The notes beneath the pieces are model-generated. The model saw nothing but the letters and a program-made list of their open reading frames with translations. It was not told the origin of the DNA and made no database searches. From contig CAYHBD010000016.1 of the NCBI GenBank assembly GCA_964354805.1, positions 68,532 through 132,531 on the forward strand: a stretch of 64,000 nucleotides of DNA. The letters are read 5' to 3'. The translations under genes were made by a program, and so were the position numbers. This stretch comes from an uncultured archaeon. GTDB taxonomy: Archaea > Iainarchaeota > Iainarchaeia > Iainarchaeales > GCA-2688035. Of the stretch, positions 57,640 through 61,949 are shown piece by piece. Each line of letters begins with the position of its first letter. The first letter of the stretch is position 1.

Positions 57640-59286
57640 TCAAACTTCCATTTCAAGCACCGCTGTCGGCATCTGCAAACCGAAATTCTGCAGAACAGCT
57701 TTGCTAACCTCTCCAAGCAAACCCTTTTTGTTCCCGATTTTTATTGCAGCACTTTTTCCCGCAACAAATGCGGCATTATTCAATTCCTGCAGCTCATACT
57801 GCAATCCAAGGTGCTCTGCTATTGCCTGCAGCACGCTCTTTATCACTGTGAATTCCGCTTCCTTGCCGCACAATGCAATGCAGAGTTTGGTTTTTTCCGC
57901 AACAGCTGTTTCGCTTTTTGGCTCCAATTCAACCGTTTTTCCCAATTCAAAAATCTTCTGTGGATATGCATAGTGCTTGTTTGCTGCAAGGAAATCAAGC
58001 AGCTCTGGGAACAGATGCTTTCTGAAAACAGTGTAGCTCAGGCTCACTGGGTTTGCCAACTCGACAAACTGTTCTTTCTCCGCATCCAATCCAATCATTG
58101 CAGCCTGCTTTTCCTTGTTTGTCATTGTGTAAGTAAGCACTTCCTGCAGGCCAAGCCCAATGCACACTTCTCTCACCAAATCGATTTGCCTTGTTTCATC
58201 CCTCTCCTTTCCAACTGTTGCAAGCTTTATCTGCAAAGGCTGGATTTTGTTATAGCCGTAAGAAATCAAAACATCCTCAATCACATCAACAGGGTGCAGA
58301 ATGTCCTGCCTGTACGCCGGATAAGCGCATTCAAGCATTGCCCCTTTTTCTTTTACCTCATACCTTGCCTTCTGCAGCAATTCGATTATTTCCTTATTTC
58401 CCAAATCCAACCCGCTGAATTCCTTAATATCCTGAATTTTTACATTCACTTTTTTCGGCGAAAAATCAGGCGTTTCAATTTTCTTGTTCGGATAGCGAAC
58501 CGCAACACTGTAAATGCTGAAACCCCTTTCTGCAAGCGCCGACACCATTACATTCAAAGCAGTGTTAACCGTTTCCTGCTCAAAGCCTGTTACCTCAACC
58601 AGCATCTCTTTTGTTGCCTCGCTTACTTTTCCGGTGAGCTGGGAATTAATTATTGGCGGCATTGATGCAACAACCAGATTGCTGTCCTCAAGGATTGGGA
58701 ACCTGTCACTGCCCTGCAACAGGTGCGCGTACTCTTTCCCTGTCGGATGCTCCTGCAATATCTCCAGCAAATCCATTTCAACCTTGTACTCCAGTGGAAT
58801 GAATTTTTTCTCCCTTGGCTTATATGCGCGATAGTGCATTGGAGGTAGTAGCTTGCTCCAGTCATACAATCCAATTGCTGCCTCTTTTCTTTTCCTTCCA
58901 AAAGTCAGGCAGACCTTTTCCTGAAGCTGAATCATCTGCACAAGGAATTCCTCTGTCACTTTCACATTTTTCACAATTGCAGCAGCAATGCACGGCCTGA
59001 CGCCTGCAACGCTTTTGTCAACAATCAATTCAACCCCGCTTTTCTTTACAGAATATTTTGGAATTCCCCTTTCTTTGGTAAGCCTGCCTCTCAATTCGCG
59101 GGCAATTCCCTCAGCGCTGAGCAAATCTGGCCTGTTTGAGTCCTTTACCTCGACAGTAATGCTATCCCCCTCGGCAGAATCCACCTCGCTTTTCGCATAC
59201 ATTACAGCCTCTTTGAATTCAGCAAGCGAAAGCTTTTTTCCAACCAGCTTCTGCATGTCACGCAAGCTGACATTTACGTTTGGCAT
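57640..59286 (-). CDS. pheT: Phenylalanyl-tRNA synthetase beta subunit (archaeal type)
   Basis: Start at ATG 59284-59286 (MPNVNVSLRDMQKLVGKKLS...), typical of the archaeal PheT N-terminus, with B3/4 and B5 domains. The upstream 38 codons of the track ORF overlap the neighbouring gene. Confidence 0.9.
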   Translation of the reverse strand: MPNVNVSLRDMQKLVGKKLSLAEFKEAVMYAKSEVDSAEGDSITVEVKDSNRPDLLSAEGIARELRGRLTKERGIPKYSVKKSGVELIVDKSVAGVRPCIAAAIVKNVKVTEEFLVQMIQLQEKVCLTFGRKRKEAAIGLYDWSKLLPPMHYRAYKPREKKFIPLEYKVEMDLLEILQEHPTGKEYAHLLQGSDRFPILEDSNLVVASMPPIINSQLTGKVSEATKEMLVEVTGFEQETVNTALNVMVSALAERGFSIYSVAVRYPNKKIETPDFSPKKVNVKIQDIKEFSGLDLGNKEIIELLQKARYEVKEKGAMLECAYPAYRQDILHPVDVIEDVLISYGYNKIQPLQIKLATVGKERDETRQIDLVREVCIGLGLQEVLTYTMTNKEKQAAMIGLDAEKEQFVELANPVSLSYTVFRKHLFPELLDFLAANKHYAYPQKIFELGKTVELEPKSETAVAEKTKLCIALCGKEAEFTVIKSVLQAIAEHLGLQYELQELNNAAFVAGKSAAIKIGNKKGLLGEVSKAVLQNFGLQMPTAVLEMEV

Positions 59287-59287
59287 T

Positions 59288-60283
59288 TCACTCAACCCTT
59301 CCTTTTTGAAATTCTTTTTTGCATAGCGGGCATTTGTAGCGCCGATATTTTCTATTCTCTTGCTTTGTAAAACCGTTTCTCCAAACTTTTTTGTGTCCAC
59401 AATGAATGCAGGGAATATCTATTGTGCCCAAATTTTTCTTTTTTAAAAGTTTTTTCTCATCATTACTCTTTTCATATTTTATAATGCGTAATTTAGCCTC
59501 CCGCTTTTCTTCATGTTTAGAAAAAGGCAATAATGTGTCTGCTAACTTTACAATATCCTTATGGTTCGTCATCATAACCCGGTATAAGTCAAAGTTGCAC
59601 TTCCGTGTCCCATAAACGCCTTTTTTTCTAACCAAATAAAGATGCGAGTTAAACCCAAGCCCTTTTAGTTTTTGATTAATCTGTTCCAAAATTGTTTTAT
59701 CACAGGTGCCCAGACTAAAAACAAGATCTTTCCATTTCCCGCCGTATTTCTTATGTTCGGTTATTATCCAGCTGGCTTCACTGTCACAGTACCCCGCTAA
59801 AAACGAGTAGAATGCCCCTTCGTCATTTAAGATCCAATCCGGAATTGATTTTGGTTTTTCTATTAAAAAGTCAAATGAAGGGTGCAGATAACAATTTATT
59901 TTTCGGCTTTTCTCGGTAAAGCCCCCCTTTGCCTCGTATTCATTGACATGAGAATATTTTTCAAAGGCATCTCTAAACATTTGCATTTGCGCTTTTTTTG
60001 GGGATGTAGTGCAGGCAACTACTAACCTGCAGTGTTTTTGGGCACTAACATCACCGGTTCTTAATCCAATTAAATATGCTTTTTCAATTAAGTTTCCGTC
60101 GAATGTGTGTCTTGTGAGATTTTTTCTGTCAGACGGTCGCCTAGCCACCTTGAATCGTTCCATATGGTAGGCAATACTCCCTTTGGATTTCATGCCGTAC
60201 ATTTTTGCAATCTTGAAAAGGGAAAGTTCTTTTTTCCAATACAAATCCTCCAACACTTCTTTTGATATTTCTTCTCTATTCAT
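59288..60283 (-). CDS. Free-standing LAGLIDADG homing-endonuclease-like protein with N-terminal HTH and C-terminal zinc ribbon
   Basis: Motifs AYLIGLRTGDVSA and FLAGYCDSEASW. C-terminal CIHCGHKKV...YKCPLCKKEF. SD GGTGGGAG lies 4 nt before the ATG. The stop lies 1 nt before the pheT ATG. Confidence 0.6.
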   Translation of the reverse strand: MNREEISKEVLEDLYWKKELSLFKIAKMYGMKSKGSIAYHMERFKVARRPSDRKNLTRHTFDGNLIEKAYLIGLRTGDVSAQKHCRLVVACTTSPKKAQMQMFRDAFEKYSHVNEYEAKGGFTEKSRKINCYLHPSFDFLIEKPKSIPDWILNDEGAFYSFLAGYCDSEASWIITEHKKYGGKWKDLVFSLGTCDKTILEQINQKLKGLGFNSHLYLVRKKGVYGTRKCNFDLYRVMMTNHKDIVKLADTLLPFSKHEEKREAKLRIIKYEKSNDEKKLLKKKNLGTIDIPCIHCGHKKVWRNGFTKQENRKYRRYKCPLCKKEFQKGRVE

Positions 60284-60295
60284 ACTCCCACCGAT

Positions 60296-60439
60296 TTACC
60301 TCTTGACCGTTACTTCCAATATCTCCTTTTCTTTTACTTTGAATTTCTTAACTATCCTTGATGGAATTGTTATAACTAATGCATTTCCTGTTTTCCAAAC
60401 CTTTGCATCAAATATTCTATGCAGCCCCACACTTATCAC
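60296..60439 (-). CDS. AbrB/SpoVT/MazE-like swapped-hairpin small protein (47 aa, GTG start); not in the ORF track
   Basis: Own translation: VISVGLHRIFDAKVWKTGNALVITIPSRIVKKFKVKEKEILEVTVKR. K-x-G-N-S/A-x-x-V/I-x-I-P is the AbrB-type motif. Confidence 0.45.
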   Translation of the reverse strand: MISVGLHRIFDAKVWKTGNALVITIPSRIVKKFKVKEKEILEVTVKR

Positions 60440-60447
60440 GTAAATAC

Positions 60448-60470
60448 TTTGTATATACAAATATTAAAAA
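60448..60470 (-). promoter_or_regulatory. TATA-like box plus perfect 14-bp palindrome upstream of the AbrB-like ORF
   Basis: Gene-sense TTTTTAATATTTGTATATACAAAGTATTTAC|GTG. TTTGTATATACAAA (60448-60461) is its own reverse complement. The spacing fits a leaderless transcript starting near the GTG. Confidence 0.45.
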
Positions 60471-60479
60471 GGTTTTCTC

Positions 60480-61949
60480 TTAATTCGTCACCATTGGCGC
60501 GTTTCTCAACCATTGCAGGTCTTTGCTAAACAATTGCCGTATGTCTTCAATGCCCAGCTTAATCATCGCCAGCCTATCTACACCAATGCCCCATGCTATT
60601 ACTGGTTCTTTAATTCCCAAAGGCAGAGTAAGCTCTGGCCTGAAAATTCCTGCGCCAGCTACCTCCATCCAACCAATCTTTGGGTGTTCAATGTAAAGTT
60701 CGCAACTTGGTTCGGTGAAAGGGAAGTACCCACTTGTGAATTTTACTTTTTTTGCTCCAGCCATTTCAATTGCAAGTTGTTTTAAAATGCCAAGCAAGTG
60801 CCTAAATGTCAGGCTTTTGTCTATTATTATTCCTTCTAACTGATTAAATTCAATCAAGTGCCGTGCGTCAACTATATCGGGTCTGTAACATCTTGCAATC
60901 GTAAAGTATTTTCCCGGCACTTCAACTCCTTCTACAAGCTGCCTTGCACTGTGGGCAGTCCCGTGTGCAGCCGGCATCAACCTGCTTGCAATCTGTTCGC
61001 TCCACTTATAGCGCCATCCCCTGCTTCCAGTGCCTGCCCCATTCTCGTGCGCTGCCTTCACTCTTTCAACAATTTTTTTGTCAGGCAGCTTTCCGAATTT
61101 CGGCTGCTTTAATTGGTAAGTGTCAGTCCAGCTTCTTGCAGGATGATTCTGCGGCTGGAAGAGAGCATCAAAGTTGTAGAATTCCTGCACAATAAGCCTT
61201 TCCTGCATTTCCTGAAAGCCAAGAGAAACAAGCTTTCTCCTCAACTGGTTCAGGAACTGCACATAGGGCTGCCTTTTTCCGATAATTATTTTCGGGACAG
61301 CGCCCTCAATATTGTACGTTCTTTCCTTTACATCGGCAAGCAATTGCAATGCCTCTTCCCCTGATTTGTTCAGCCTTGCTTTCTCTTCAGTTTTTTCAAT
61401 TCTTTCAACCAGGCTCCTCCTCATTGCCTCGCTTAATGCTGCATTCTCTTCCTTCCCAAGCTCTTCCCCTGAAGAGATTTTTTTCAGCAGCCCTTCCACC
61501 ACATACTTTCCTTCAATCAGCTGTTTTTCCAATCCTGTGAATTCAAGCATTGTTTCCTCGCCAGGCATTACGCTCACCCAGGCATTCCTTTTTGTAATTC
61601 CCATTGCAACATTTAGCTCCGGGGCATTCAGGCTGCTTTTGCCCTTAACCTGCTGCAGTGTTCCCTTGCCCCCTAGCGCCTGCAGTGCCTCAACGAACAA
61701 TCTTTCAGGCAGGCCGTTGCCCAAGCTGGTTTTTCCCATCGCTGTTAGAACAAGCAGGCTTTTCTTTTCCTCACTTAATTCAATCAGGCCCTTCTCCTTG
61801 AGCCACTGCACCGCCCTCCTCACGCTGTCAATGGGCAGGTCGCTTTCCTTGCTTATCCCTTCCGCTCCCTTAAAGCTGCCGCTGTCAAGTGCCCTCAGTG
61901 TTCTTGCCTCGATTTCGCTCAGGCTCTGTACTGTTTTTTGTAAATCCAC
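60480..61949 (-). CDS. pheS: Phenylalanyl-tRNA synthetase alpha subunit (archaeal/eukaryal type)
   Basis: 489 aa. N-terminal wHTH repeats and class II motifs (FQPQNHPARS, YFPFTEPS, GIGVDRLAM). Confidence 0.92.
   Translation of the reverse strand: MDLQKTVQSLSEIEARTLRALDSGSFKGAEGISKESDLPIDSVRRAVQWLKEKGLIELSEEKKSLLVLTAMGKTSLGNGLPERLFVEALQALGGKGTLQQVKGKSSLNAPELNVAMGITKRNAWVSVMPGEETMLEFTGLEKQLIEGKYVVEGLLKKISSGEELGKEENAALSEAMRRSLVERIEKTEEKARLNKSGEEALQLLADVKERTYNIEGAVPKIIIGKRQPYVQFLNQLRRKLVSLGFQEMQERLIVQEFYNFDALFQPQNHPARSWTDTYQLKQPKFGKLPDKKIVERVKAAHENGAGTGSRGWRYKWSEQIASRLMPAAHGTAHSARQLVEGVEVPGKYFTIARCYRPDIVDARHLIEFNQLEGIIIDKSLTFRHLLGILKQLAIEMAGAKKVKFTSGYFPFTEPSCELYIEHPKIGWMEVAGAGIFRPELTLPLGIKEPVIAWGIGVDRLAMIKLGIEDIRQLFSKDLQWLRNAPMVTN

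What the first reader, a model, noticed from the sequence alone, without database searches (positions are those of the whole stretch)
59288..60470. AbrB-like plus LAGLIDADG/zinc-ribbon gene pair with its own promoter, wedged between pheS and pheT and coupled to pheT
Two non-housekeeping genes lie between pheS (stop at 60480) and pheT (ATG at 59286), on the same strand. The first is an unannotated 47-aa AbrB/SpoVT-like ORF at 60296-60439. The second is a 331-aa protein at 59288-60283 with two LAGLIDADG motifs, an N-terminal HTH and a C-terminal CxxC...CxxC ribbon. The pair has its own TATA-like box and a perfect 14-bp palindrome, TTTGTATATACAAA, at 60448-60461. The palindrome is positioned for a leaderless transcript. 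The LAGLIDADG stop codon ends 1 nt before the pheT ATG. Expression of an essential aminoacyl-tRNA synthetase subunit therefore appears physically chained to a selfish-looking module. It is not an intein or intron arrangement, because both PheRS genes are intact. It could be a domesticated homing endonuclease or regulator, or an addiction-like insertion.
Basis: partly seen in the sequence, partly recalled or inferred. Interest (0 to 1): 0.7.

Follow-up and report, generated by a model that had tools for sequence, protein, structure and literature searches.

The report
Mobile homing-endonuclease cassette between pheS and pheT
A selfish DNA-cutting gene, here with a small repressor gene and its own promoter, sits between the two genes for an essential tRNA-charging enzyme in a tiny (DPANN) archaeon, and relatives show it has repeatedly jumped into exactly this spot.

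Summary
Archaeal pheS (60480-61949) and pheT (57640-59286) are separated by a 47-aa AbrB-fold gene, a 331-aa HTH + two-motif LAGLIDADG + zinc-ribbon gene, and a TATA-like box with a 14-bp palindrome.

Comparison with about 140 related loci identifies a free-standing homing-endonuclease cassette. It is neither a domesticated gene nor a toxin-antitoxin pair.
- All 18 zinc-ribbon-clade copies with visible flanks lie between pheS and pheT.
- Most relatives, including the window's closest ones, have an empty site where the pheS stop abuts or overlaps the pheT ATG.
- Occupied sites are scattered over the PheT tree (at least 12 gains or losses). The endonuclease tree does not match the host tree.
- Two pairs of contigs show sharp recombination tracts. 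In L006 versus L117, synonymous divergence is 0.04 in the endonuclease gene and 0.57 in pheT.
- The window's cassette is 36% GC; its flanks are 45-47%.
- The catalytic acidic residues are invariant and dN/dS is 0.07-0.18.

The AbrB gene and its palindrome are an optional add-on, found in 4 loci and under purifying selection. They are probably an autorepressed promoter module.

This is a new variant of a known kind ("intronless homing"), now seen in DPANN archaeal chromosomes. Cleavage activity and the target site are untested.

The parts
60480..61949 (-). pheS (PheRS alpha subunit), upstream flank of the insertion site. In relatives, its 3' end is co-converted together with the cassette.
   Evidence: NF003210 E = 1e-153 and PF01409 E = 3e-77. 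Tracts covering the last 350-900 bp of pheS in L006/L117 and in L101/L082.
60462..60470 (-). TATA-like box (TTTTTAATA), preceded by an A-rich BRE-like stretch. Its centre lies about 27 nt upstream of the GTG of the small ORF. This is the inferred cassette promoter, giving a leaderless or near-leaderless mRNA.
   Evidence: Read directly from the sequence. An equivalent A/T box with the same spacing occurs in L001, L002 and L040. Function is inferred, not shown.
60448..60461 (.). Perfect 14-bp palindrome TTTGTATATACAAA between the TATA-like box and the start codon. Inferred operator of the AbrB-like protein.
   Evidence: unique in the window; the core is found only in the AbrB-bearing loci L001 and L040. 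L002 has TATGTAAATACAAA at the same position.
60296..60439 (-). 47-aa minimal AbrB/SpoVT-fold DNA-binding protein (GTG start). An optional regulatory module of the cassette.
   Evidence: PF04014 at 24.8 bits against a cut-off of 24.7; all 5 aligned homologues match. PDB AbrB regulators 5itm, 2l66 and 5itj at E = 1e-5. pN 0.10-0.16 against pS 0.60-0.91. In L002 an ATG aligns with the window's GTG.
60285..60292 (-). Shine-Dalgarno-like GGTGGGAG, 1 nt upstream of the LAGLIDADG ATG.
   Evidence: Read directly from the sequence. Inference only.
59288..60283 (-). 331-aa free-standing LAGLIDADG homing endonuclease gene: N-terminal HTH, two-motif nuclease core, C-terminal zinc ribbon.
   Evidence: dN/dS 0.07-0.09 against L001 and L002. 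GC 36.9% against 45-47% in the flanks.
60155..60262 (-). N-terminal three-helix (HTH-like) DNA-binding module, residues 8-43. Absent from some orthologues (L006, L007, L117, L143).
   Evidence: AF2 helices 8-17, 22-28 and 34-43. Paralogues carry 1-4 copies, annotated as HTH_23, HTH_38 or HTH_50. N-terminally truncated forms are seen.
60047..60079 (-). LAGLIDADG motif 1 (AYLIGLRTGDV, residues 69-79). D78 is at the catalytic position.
   Evidence: G73, R75, G77 and D78 are invariant in 22 homologues.
59774..59803 (-). LAGLIDADG motif 2 (FLAGYCDSEA, residues 161-170). E169 is at the catalytic position.
   Evidence: F161, L162, Y165, D167 and E169 are invariant in 22 homologues.
59321..59410 (-). 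C-terminal CxxC...CxxC zinc ribbon (C292, C295, C318, C321), IS1/IS1595-type. It is the hallmark of the pheS|pheT-specific clade and is duplicated in L085 and L101.
   Evidence: NF050000 E = 2.9e-4, PF03811 weak. The four cysteines are at least 90% conserved. Double ribbon.
59296..59303 (-). Purine-rich Shine-Dalgarno-like stretch (AGGAAGGG) inside the 3' end of the endonuclease ORF, about 9 nt upstream of the pheT ATG. It preserves pheT translation initiation.
   Evidence: Every occupied locus has a GGTG- or GAGG-like stretch 5-10 nt before the pheT ATG. Inference only.
57640..59286 (-). pheT (PheRS beta subunit), downstream flank. Its ATG lies 1 nt after the endonuclease stop.
   Evidence: TIGR00471 E = 1.4e-155..

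Best explanation
The 1.19-kb segment 59288-60479 is a free-standing LAGLIDADG homing-endonuclease cassette. It has invaded the pheS|pheT junction of an Aenigmatarchaeota-like (DPANN) archaeon.

Proposed mechanism:
1. The endonuclease recognises a long target in the uninterrupted pheS-3'-end/pheT-5'-end region of cassette-free genomes. It uses its two-domain LAGLIDADG core together with an N-terminal HTH and a C-terminal zinc ribbon.
2. It makes a double-strand break there.
3. The break is repaired from a cassette-bearing copy. This copies the cassette and a few hundred bp of flanking pheS and pheT (co-conversion) into the recipient.
4. Insertion splits or replaces the target, so the carrier is immune.

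The cassette is built to be harmless to its host. It lies in the same orientation as the operon. Its 3' tail supplies a ribosome-binding site, and its stop lies 1 nt before the pheT ATG. This replaces the ancestral pheS-stop/pheT-start overlap.

The window's lineage has an extra module: a 47-aa AbrB-fold dimeric DNA-binding protein with its own TATA-like promoter. A palindromic operator lies between the TATA box and the start. Most likely this is an autorepressed promoter. It would keep endonuclease expression low and also feed transcription into pheT.

Shown here:
- domain architecture and fold;
- conservation of the catalytic residues;
- site-specificity of the clade;
- occupied/empty polymorphism;
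- tree incongruence;
- recombination tracts;
- compositional foreignness;
- purifying selection on both genes.

Inferred, not shown:
- actual cleavage and the target sequence;
- promoter and operator function;
- whether the window's own copy is still active.
For: 1. Fold and active site. AF2 pLDDT is 88.7. The Foldseek top hits are E-DreI, I-OnuI, I-AniI, I-SceI, I-DmoI and PI-PfuI at probability 1.0. D78 and E169 sit at the eighth position of each motif and are invariant in 22 homologues.

2. Site specificity. Every ribbon-clade copy with visible flanks lies between pheS and pheT. These are L001-L007 and L040, L062, L082, L085, L092, L101, L107 and L117, and L143-L145. Genes beyond pheS and pheT differ between loci. 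Ribbon-less paralogues (43% identity or less) lie elsewhere.

3. Empty sites. About 58 of 80 PheT-related loci have the pheS stop within -14 to +71 nt of the pheT ATG. The commonest arrangement is TA[A]TG. These include the window's closest relatives L058, L059 and L061, with PheT 70-76% identical.

4. Patchiness. Of 80 scored tips, 14 are occupied. This needs at least 12 state changes on the PheT tree. Nearly every occupied tip has an empty nearest neighbour.

5. Incongruence. Pairwise endonuclease and PheT distances are uncorrelated (Spearman rho 0.04). Two endonuclease types are intermixed within one host clade.

6. Transfer tracts.
- L006 versus L117: mismatches are dense up to -390 nt and again from +42 nt into pheT. 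There are only 20 mismatches in the roughly 1.2 kb between.
- Synonymous divergence in that pair is 0.044 in the endonuclease gene, 0.36 in pheS and 0.57 in pheT.
- The empty sister L114 is about 91% identical to L006 everywhere except the last 350 bp of pheS, where identity is 69-77%.
- L101 is a mosaic. Its distal parts resemble empty L113 (86-93%). Its proximal pheS and pheT resemble occupied L082 (82-92%).

7. Scar. In L006, L007 and L117, the 28 nt before the pheT ATG copy the pheS 3' end of the empty allele L114.

8. Composition. The window's cassette has GC 36.2% and GC3 0.33-0.38. pheS and pheT have GC 45-47% and GC3 0.50.

9. Function is maintained. dN/dS is 0.07-0.18 for the endonuclease gene. 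For the AbrB ORF it is about 0.09-0.14 where synonymous sites are not saturated.

10. The AbrB gene and its palindrome travel together and occur only in cassette loci.
Against: - No cleavage assay and no defined target. The mechanism rests on comparative signatures.
- The window's own copy has no near-identical relative. The closest is L001 (75% amino-acid identity), so recent mobility is shown for sister lineages, not for this copy.
- No clearly degenerate copy was found among about 18 loci. The classical invasion-decay-loss cycle predicts some. One ambiguous case exists: L040 and L005 are contigs of one MAG that break inside the gene.
- In L006 and L007, most of the original junction sequence survives downstream of the cassette. 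If the target were exactly the junction, immunity there is not self-evident. The cut site may instead lie inside the pheS 3' end, as for phage free-standing enzymes.
- The trees are neighbour-joining without bootstrap support. Deep nodes are unreliable, although the close sister pairs at 88-95% identity are robust.
- Metagenome contigs can be strain chimeras. That would still require near-identical cassettes in divergent strains.
Confidence: 0.78

Rival explanations
1. Domesticated LAGLIDADG protein. It would be an ancient, vertically inherited DNA- or RNA-binding factor (regulator or maturase-like) serving the pheS-pheT operon, lost many times.
For: - All copies seen are intact and under purifying selection.
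- Amino-acid identity of the protein between distant hosts exceeds that of PheS and PheT.
- The gene is tightly coupled to pheT.
- The fold also matches the bI3 maturase.
Against: - At least 12 independent changes would be needed for 14 occupied tips, and the closest relatives are empty.
- The endonuclease tree does not follow the host tree.
- Synonymous divergence is 13-fold lower in the endonuclease gene than in the adjacent pheT for L006 versus L117. Protein-level constraint cannot produce this.
- Both catalytic acidic residues are invariant, unlike degenerate maturases.
- The cassette GC is 9-11 points below its flanks.
Confidence: 0.07
2. Toxin-antitoxin-like addiction module. The AbrB/MazE-fold protein would be the antitoxin neutralising the endonuclease (toxin), with autoregulation at the palindrome.
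For: - The gene order is small AbrB/MazE-fold gene, then nuclease, with a palindrome in the promoter.
- PF04014 is the MazE antitoxin family.
- There are weak hits to 'addiction module antidote' models and PDB entries.
Against: - The 47-aa protein consists only of the swapped-hairpin DNA-binding domain. Its best matches are stand-alone 48-54-aa archaeal AbrB regulators. It has no C-terminal toxin-binding extension.
- The endonuclease gene occurs without it in most occupied loci. The nuclease therefore needs no antidote.
- No known toxin family matches.
Confidence: 0.05
3. Passive cargo. The cassette would spread only by ordinary homologous recombination of the highly conserved pheS and pheT flanks after DNA uptake. 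The nuclease would be inactive or serve another role, such as defence or competition against incoming DNA.
For: - The junction also holds unrelated small ORFs, NUDIX genes, a DGR-like cassette and others in various lineages. It therefore tolerates insertions generally.
- In Neisseria meningitidis a restriction-modification system sits between pheS and pheT (PMC7973814).
- The recombination tracts do not themselves prove an endonuclease-induced break.
Against: - The other occupants are lineage-restricted singletons. The LAGLIDADG clade recurs at this one site across hosts whose PheT is only 42-50% identical.
- The clade is specific to this site, while its paralogues are elsewhere.
- The catalytic residues are invariant and under selection.
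- The tracts are centred on the cassette with sharp edges, as in double-strand-break repair.
Confidence: 0.1

Closest known systems
Free-standing homing endonuclease genes of T-even phages (seg and mob genes; 'intronless homing'; review PMC2988022)
   Same: - A nuclease gene with no intron or intein, lying between conserved genes in operon orientation.
- Often promoter-less and embedded in the host transcript.
- Presence/absence polymorphism between relatives.
- Spread with co-conversion of flanking markers.
   Different: - The nuclease family differs: LAGLIDADG here, GIY-YIG or HNH there.
- The host is a cellular archaeal chromosome, not a phage.
- The target is an aminoacyl-tRNA synthetase operon.
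- Cleavage and the cleavage-site position are unknown here.
Monomeric two-motif LAGLIDADG homing endonucleases (I-DmoI, I-OnuI, I-AniI, I-SceI, PI-PfuI)
   Same: - The same pseudo-dimeric fold (Foldseek probability 1.0).
- Two LAGLIDADG helices, each ending in an acidic residue (D78, E169).
   Different: - Sequence identity is only 12-20%, and Pfam LAGLIDADG_3 is below its cut-off.
- Those enzymes are intron- or intein-encoded and lack accessory domains.
- This one is free-standing and carries an N-terminal HTH and a C-terminal IS1/IS1595-type zinc ribbon.
Free-standing LAGLIDADG gene in Haloferax alternative-glycosylation islands (PMC5867893)
   Same: A free-standing LAGLIDADG gene in an archaeal chromosome, proposed to drive gene conversion of neighbouring DNA.
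   Different: - That gene has a different Pfam family (LAGLIDADG_2) and a different locus.
- It has no accessory ribbon or AbrB module.
- That paper reports no occupied/empty analysis or tract evidence for it. Here such evidence is presented.
Free-standing HEGs of fungal and other organellar genomes that insert at the 3' end of a host gene and duplicate its terminus (own knowledge; general context in PMC7487136)
   Same: L006, L007 and L117 carry a replacement pheS 3' end upstream of the cassette. A 28-nt remnant of the original pheS terminus lies downstream.
   Different: - The genome here is an archaeal chromosome, not an organellar one.
- The ORF is separate, not fused in frame to the host gene.
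- The remnant is visible in only one lineage, not in the window.
NmeDI restriction-modification system between pheS and pheT in Neisseria meningitidis (PMC7973814)
   Same: The same landing site: the junction of the two PheRS subunit genes is occupied by a selfish nuclease-encoding element in some strains.
   Different: A bacterial R-M system, with unrelated proteins and a different spread mechanism. This is an analogy of location only.
Minimal archaeal AbrB-fold regulators (PDB 2l66, 5itj, 5itm; 48-54 aa)
   Same: The same size and the same swapped-hairpin DNA-binding domain signature (E = 1e-5). They presumably bind DNA as dimers, which fits a palindromic operator.
   Different: Those proteins are stand-alone chromosomal proteins. 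This one is cargo of a mobile cassette and is paired with a conserved palindrome in its own promoter. Binding has not been tested.
I-TevI transcriptional autorepression (own knowledge: the T4 intron endonuclease represses its own promoter)
   Same: The concept is the same: a homing-endonuclease gene whose expression is held down at its own promoter to limit cost to the host.
   Different: Here the repressor is inferred to be a separate AbrB-fold protein, not the nuclease itself.

Membership tests
LAGLIDADG endonuclease superfamily | Two LAGLIDADG helices packed at the centre of a pseudo-dimeric alpha-beta-beta-alpha-beta-beta-alpha x2 fold | tested here: met
   AF2 model, pLDDT 88.7. Foldseek probability 1.0 to more than 50 LAGLIDADG structures. 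Motifs at residues 69-79 and 161-170.
LAGLIDADG endonuclease superfamily | An acidic catalytic residue at the C-terminal end of each motif | tested here: met
   D78 and E169 are invariant in 22 homologues.
LAGLIDADG endonuclease superfamily | Curated sequence-profile membership (Pfam LAGLIDADG_1/2/3) | tested here: inconclusive
   PF14528 scores 20.1 bits against a cut-off of 22.5. Many homologues carry a precomputed PF14528 hit.
LAGLIDADG endonuclease superfamily | Site-specific double-strand cleavage of a 14-40-bp target | not testable with these tools
   Needs biochemistry.
Mobile homing endonuclease gene (homing / intronless homing) | Occupied and empty alleles of the same site among relatives | tested here: met
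Mobile homing endonuclease gene (homing / intronless homing) | Element phylogeny incongruent with host phylogeny, or the element younger than its flanks | tested here: met
   Spearman rho 0.04. pS 0.044 in the endonuclease gene against 0.57 in pheT for L006 versus L117.
Mobile homing endonuclease gene (homing / intronless homing) | Co-conversion tracts of flanking host sequence | tested here: met
   L006/L117/L114 and L101/L082/L113. Not visible for the window's own copy, which has no close relative.
Mobile homing endonuclease gene (homing / intronless homing) | The endonuclease cuts the empty allele and transmission is biased | not testable with these tools
   Needs a cleavage assay or a genetic cross.
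Intron- or intein-encoded endonuclease | The ORF lies inside a self-splicing intron, or is fused in frame as an intein within a host gene | tested here: not met
   It is a separate ORF with its own start and stop between intact pheS and pheT. No Rfam intron family is found at gathering threshold or at E <= 1.
AbrB/SpoVT/MazE swapped-hairpin domain (PF04014) | Profile match over the beta-hairpin DNA-binding domain | tested here: met
   24.8 bits against a cut-off of 24.7 for the 47-aa form; 5 of 5 homologues match. PDB AbrB regulators at E = 1e-5. This is a borderline pass.
Type II toxin-antitoxin system (MazE/VapB-like antitoxin plus toxin) | The antitoxin has a toxin-binding extension beyond the DNA-binding domain | tested here: not met
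   The protein is 47 aa and the domain spans residues 16-45.
Type II toxin-antitoxin system (MazE/VapB-like antitoxin plus toxin) | Obligate co-occurrence of the two genes | tested here: not met
   The endonuclease gene lacks the AbrB gene in at least 10 occupied loci.
IS1/IS1595 transposase | An N-terminal zinc ribbon followed by a DDE transposase domain | tested here: not met
   Only the ribbon matches, weakly, and it is C-terminal. There is no DDE domain.

The most novel reading that the evidence does not exclude
The cassette may escape the usual invade-decay-loss cycle of homing endonuclease genes by chaining itself to an essential gene.

- pheT initiation depends on ribosomes terminating 1 nt upstream and on a ribosome-binding site inside the endonuclease ORF.
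- In the AbrB-bearing lineage it may also depend on the cassette's own promoter, because an oligo-T run directly follows the pheS stop.
- Frameshifts, nonsense mutations and imprecise deletions in the endonuclease gene would therefore lower PheRS-beta and be purged.

This 'operon addiction' would explain why no clearly degenerate copy was seen among about 18 loci. It would also make the AbrB repressor a mobile-element-encoded regulator of an essential aminoacyl-tRNA synthetase subunit.
Probability: 0.2. Interest if true: 0.7.

Novelty: new variant of a known kind. Interest (0 to 1): 0.55.

Why it matters
- It gives sequence-level evidence that 'intronless homing', known mainly from phages, operates in chromosomes of DPANN archaea. 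It does so inside an essential aminoacyl-tRNA synthetase operon.
- Near-identical 1.2-kb tracts occur in hosts about 16% diverged at the DNA level. This implies recent DNA exchange and recombination between distinct lineages of these uncultured episymbionts.
- It defines a small, site-specific clade within a large, uncharacterised HTH-LAGLIDADG family. That family has 375 clusters (at 50% identity) at E <= 1e-30 and 1155 at E <= 1e-10.
- The clade has an unusual architecture (HTH + LAGLIDADG + IS1-type zinc ribbon) and a predictable natural target region. This makes it an easy candidate for biochemical characterisation as a new meganuclease scaffold.
- The AbrB gene with its palindrome is a compact candidate repressor-operator pair carried by a mobile element.

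Tried and rejected
1. Vertical inheritance. After the first genome scan, all 8 loci were occupied and the endonuclease was more conserved than PheS and PheT. This looked like long-term vertical inheritance or domestication. The PheT-anchored metagenome scan found mostly empty sites and the synonymous-site analysis contradicted it, so it was rejected.

2. pheS-pheT fusions. L098, L113 and L114 appeared to have pheS fused to pheT. This was an artefact of tblastn running across the stop codon. They are ordinary empty sites.

3. Pseudogenes. L085 and L101 were suspected to be pseudogenes because my ORF finder listed nothing there. Translation shows intact ORFs that end inside pheT, each with two zinc ribbons.

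4. rRNA introns. I tested whether the distant paralogues are rRNA-intron endonucleases like those of CPR bacteria (PMC11270868). Rfam found no rRNA in 30 paralogue loci. One paralogue lies between DUF72 and Macro-domain genes. They too are free-standing.

5. Other junction occupants. Nine small ORFs found at or beside the junction in other lineages, plus a NUDIX protein, were tested as possible decayed endonucleases or other nucleases. None had a significant Pfam hit except NUDIX.

6. Source contig. The exact-sequence look-up of the window's protein found nothing.

7. Scar in the window. I looked for a pheS-terminus remnant at the 3' end of the window's cassette. Only a weak 12/15 match was found, which is not convincing.

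8. AbrB next to paralogues. I tested whether paralogues generally have an AbrB-like neighbour. L034 has one, divergently oriented. The 54-aa neighbour in L139 is unrelated. There is no general association.

9. Literature. Searches for a homing endonuclease at pheS/pheT found only the Neisseria R-M case.
Full report
**1. The observation**

On the minus strand the window encodes archaeal pheS (60480-61949; NF003210, E = 1e-153) and pheT (57640-59286; TIGR00471, E = 1.4e-155). Between them lie:
- a TATA-like box, TTTTTAATA (60462-60470);
- a perfect palindrome, TTTGTATATACAAA (60448-60461);
- a 47-aa ORF with a GTG start (60296-60439);
- a Shine-Dalgarno-like GGTGGGAG;
- a 331-aa ORF (59288-60283), whose TGA ends one nucleotide before the pheT ATG.

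**2. The two proteins**

*The 331-aa protein.*
- It matches Pfam LAGLIDADG_3 only weakly (E = 8e-4).
- Its C-terminal CxxC...CxxC matches the IS1/IS1595 zinc-binding domain, also weakly (E = 2.9e-4).
- An alignment of 22 homologues shows two motifs, YLxGLRxGD and FLAGYxDSE.
- G73, R75, G77, D78, D167 and E169 are invariant. D78 and E169 occupy the eighth, catalytic position of the canonical motif.
- The AlphaFold2 model is confident (pLDDT 88.7, pTM 0.74).
- Foldseek places it with monomeric LAGLIDADG nucleases and relatives at probability 1.0: E-DreI, I-OnuI, I-AniI, I-SceI, I-DmoI, PI-PfuI and the bI3 maturase.
- The model adds a three-helix N-terminal module (residues 8-43) and a C-terminal beta ribbon.

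*The 47-aa protein.*
- It matches PF04014 at the gathering threshold (24.8 against 24.7 bits). All five aligned homologues match.
- A profile of it hits the 48-54-aa archaeal AbrB-family regulators 5itm, 2l66 and 5itj (E = 1e-5).
- Between the four copies found, synonymous sites are near saturation (pS 0.60-0.91) while pN is 0.10-0.16. It is therefore a real, constrained gene.

**3. Where the relatives are**

A search of 5.8 billion proteins gave 110 homologues. The top 36 or so share at least 43% identity, and those aligned carry the C-terminal ribbon. More distant homologues occur in DPANN archaea, CPR bacteria and Chloroflexi. They lack the ribbon and carry one to four N-terminal HTH repeats.

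A profile search of 1.84 billion cluster representatives shows a large family: 375 clusters at E <= 1e-30 and 1155 at E <= 1e-10. Only a handful of clusters cover the full length including the ribbon.

In GTDB genomes, 57 loci encode relatives. The eight with the highest identity, or sharing a genome with one of them, are L001-L007 and L040. They are labelled Aenigmatarchaeota or 'archaeon', and all have the gene next to pheS and/or pheT. The other 49 loci have 43% identity or less and none is near pheS or pheT.

Three further ribbon-clade proteins looked up individually are also between pheS and pheT, although the genes outside pheS and pheT differ. The ribbon-bearing clade is therefore specific to this one site.

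The paralogues are also free-standing. Rfam found no rRNA around 30 of them. One sits between DUF72 and Macro-domain genes.

**4. Empty sites and patchiness**

I anchored a metagenome scan on PheT rather than on the endonuclease. It returned 80 loci with PheT 42-76% identical to the window's.
- Seven are occupied: L062, L082, L085, L092, L101, L107 and L117.
- In about 58, the pheS stop lies within -14 to +71 nt of the pheT ATG. Most often the stop overlaps the start, as TA[A]TG. Tight pheS-pheT coupling is therefore the ancestral state.
- The window's closest relatives are empty: L061 (76%), L058 (72%) and L059 (70%).
- L078 (73%) carries an unrelated 140-aa ORF at the junction.

On a neighbour-joining PheT tree of 83 sequences, occupied tips are scattered. 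Almost every one has an empty nearest neighbour (pairs listed as occupied|empty):
- WIN|L058
- L092|L111
- L107|L123
- L101|L113
- L085|L091
- L002|L116 (nearest by distance; L094 is its sister in the tree)
- L006 and L007|L114

Fitch parsimony needs at least 12 changes for 14 occupied tips out of 80 scored.

**5. Incongruence and transfer tracts**

The endonuclease tree does not follow the PheT tree. Pairwise distances are uncorrelated (Spearman rho 0.04, p = 0.72). Two endonuclease types are intermixed in one host clade: type A is window-like, and type B comprises L082, L085 and L101, two of which have a duplicated ribbon.

The strongest evidence is at the DNA level.

*L117 versus L006.*
- pheS and pheT are about 84% identical.
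- From 363 nt before the pheS stop to 42 nt into pheT there are only 20 mismatches in about 1.2 kb. Both edges of this stretch are sharp.
- Synonymous divergence is 0.044 in the endonuclease gene, 0.36 in pheS (which includes part of the tract) and 0.57 in pheT. Stronger protein constraint cannot produce this; a recent transfer can.

*L114, the empty sister.* It is about 91% identical to L006 everywhere except the last 350 bp or so of pheS, where identity is 69-77%. That segment of L006 arrived with the cassette.

*L101, a second independent mosaic.*
- Its distal pheS and pheT resemble the empty L113 (86-93%).
- The proximal 700 bp or so of pheS and the first 200 bp or so of pheT resemble the occupied L082 (82-92%). 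Against L113 these stretches drop to 55-75%.

*L092 versus empty L111.* The pattern is the same but smaller: the last 150 bp of pheS are 52-74% identical against a background of about 88%.

**6. An insertion scar**

In L006, L007 and L117, the 28 nt preceding the pheT ATG lie inside the 3' end of the endonuclease ORF. They are a copy of the pheS 3' end of the empty allele L114. The sequence is AAAG[AT]TTGAAyTGGTTGAGGAGGAGTTGA, matching at 27 of the 28 shared positions, with a 2-nt deletion in the remnant.

That cassette therefore consists of a donor-type pheS terminus plus the endonuclease gene. The recipient's own pheS tail is left behind as a remnant. This echoes free-standing organellar HEGs that duplicate the 3' end of the invaded gene (own knowledge).

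No convincing remnant is visible in the window's own cassette.

**7. Evidence within the window**

The cassette's GC content is 36.2% (GC3 0.33-0.38). pheS has 47.0% and pheT 45.2% (GC3 0.50 for both), and the whole window has 43.5%. The endonuclease ORF is intact. Its dN/dS against L001 and L002 is 0.07-0.09.

The closest occupied relative, L001, is only 75% identical. The insertion in this lineage is therefore not recent, or its close relatives have not been sampled.

**8. The AbrB module**

The small gene and its palindrome occur together in the window, L001, L002 and L040. The core TTGTATATACAA is found in no other locus fetched at the time of that search (137 loci) and nowhere else in the window.

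In those four loci an A/T-rich box lies about 27 nt upstream of the start codon. The palindrome fills the space between the box and the start. A dimeric AbrB protein bound there would block pre-initiation complex assembly. This is an inference.

In L003, L092, L006 and L007 and the other occupied loci there is no AbrB gene and essentially no spacer. The endonuclease ATG follows or overlaps the pheS stop. The basic cassette is thus promoter-less and rides on the operon, like many phage seg and mob genes (PMC2988022).

The AbrB-promoter module is a lineage-specific add-on. It probably tunes expression, in the same spirit as I-TevI autorepression (own knowledge).

A toxin-antitoxin reading is unlikely. 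The protein is only the DNA-binding domain, and the nuclease does well without it.

**9. Mechanism proposed**

This is a free-standing LAGLIDADG homing endonuclease gene that spreads by double-strand-break repair into the pheS|pheT junction, with co-conversion of the flanks.

Each occupied allele keeps a GGTG- or GAGG-like ribosome-binding stretch 5-10 nt before the pheT ATG. The endonuclease stop lies at or just beyond that ATG. The host operon therefore still works.

The cut site is unknown. It may be the junction itself, which insertion splits. It may instead lie in the pheS 3' end, as with phage free-standing enzymes whose cleavage and insertion sites are separate (PMC2988022). Two facts favour the second option for that lineage: the junction is nearly intact downstream of the L006 cassette, and the co-converted pheS segment is strongly divergent.

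**10. Comparison with known systems and novelty**

- The kind is known. Intronless homing is described in T-even phages (PMC2988022). A free-standing LAGLIDADG gene has been noted in Haloferax (PMC5867893).
- LAGLIDADG genes of CPR bacteria are described inside rRNA insertions (PMC11270868).
- The pheS|pheT junction hosts an R-M system in Neisseria meningitidis (PMC7973814).
- I found no report of a homing endonuclease at pheS/pheT, nor of this domain architecture with an AbrB module.

I rate it a new variant of a known kind.

**11. Caveats**

- There is no biochemistry.
- The trees are neighbour-joining without support values.
- The data are metagenomic contigs.
- The window's copy has no close relative.
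- No clearly decayed copy was seen. One ambiguous case is L040 and L005, where two contigs of one MAG break inside the gene.

The lack of decayed copies could reflect frequent re-invasion, clean loss by recombination with empty alleles, or selection to keep the ORF open because pheT translation is coupled to it. The last is the most novel reading left open.

Noticed in passing
L004:1181-4196: In one relative (a 600-kb contig of an uncultured archaeon), a DGR-like cassette sits between pheS and the endonuclease gene. It consists of a 301-aa ORF with no Pfam hit, a bAvd-like protein (PF22296, E = 1.4e-10) and a reverse transcriptase (PF00078, E = 2.6e-23). An 88-aa ORF lies between the endonuclease gene and pheT.
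   Followed up: partly
L137, L073, L063, L088, L066/L067, L078, L070, L127/L129, L144 (pheS|pheT junctions): In other lineages the same junction holds unrelated insertions. These are single small basic ORFs of 85-140 aa with no Pfam hit, a four-ORF 1.8-kb block (L070), NUDIX hydrolases (L127, L129), and a peptidase S9/S15-like gene plus two small ORFs downstream of the endonuclease gene in L144. The junction is a general insertion hotspot.
   Followed up: partly
L009:592-756 and L016:88-275: RT-16 RNA (RF03019, 82-85 bits) lies within about 1-1.3 kb of ribbon-less LAGLIDADG paralogues, on two contigs of one MAG.
   Followed up: no
L012:5487-5738; L033:5686-5758; L034:423-493: Some ribbon-less paralogues sit directly beside structured-RNA genes. 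Archaeal RNase P RNA ends 260 nt upstream of one (L012). tRNA genes lie 240-470 nt upstream of two others. In L034 an AbrB-like 43-aa ORF lies divergently beyond the tRNA.
   Followed up: no
L085:520-1690 and L101:3875-5005: Type-B endonucleases carry two tandem C-terminal zinc ribbons, and their ORFs run into the start of pheT.
   Followed up: partly
L040:6250-6443 and L005:1-20: Two contigs of one MAG (CAYIER01) break inside the endonuclease gene. L040 diverges into unrelated, GC-richer sequence after residue 83 or so. L005 starts at about residue 100. This could be an assembly break, or another element inserted into the gene.
   Followed up: partly
window 60466-60470: An oligo-T run (TTTTT on the coding strand) begins 10 nt after the pheS stop (60480-60482) and overlaps the TATA-like box. 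It could act as an archaeal terminator. pheT transcription would then depend partly on the cassette's own promoter. This is speculative.
   Followed up: no
window 1-64000: Rfam at gathering threshold finds no RNA family at all in the 64-kb window, not even a tRNA.
   Followed up: no
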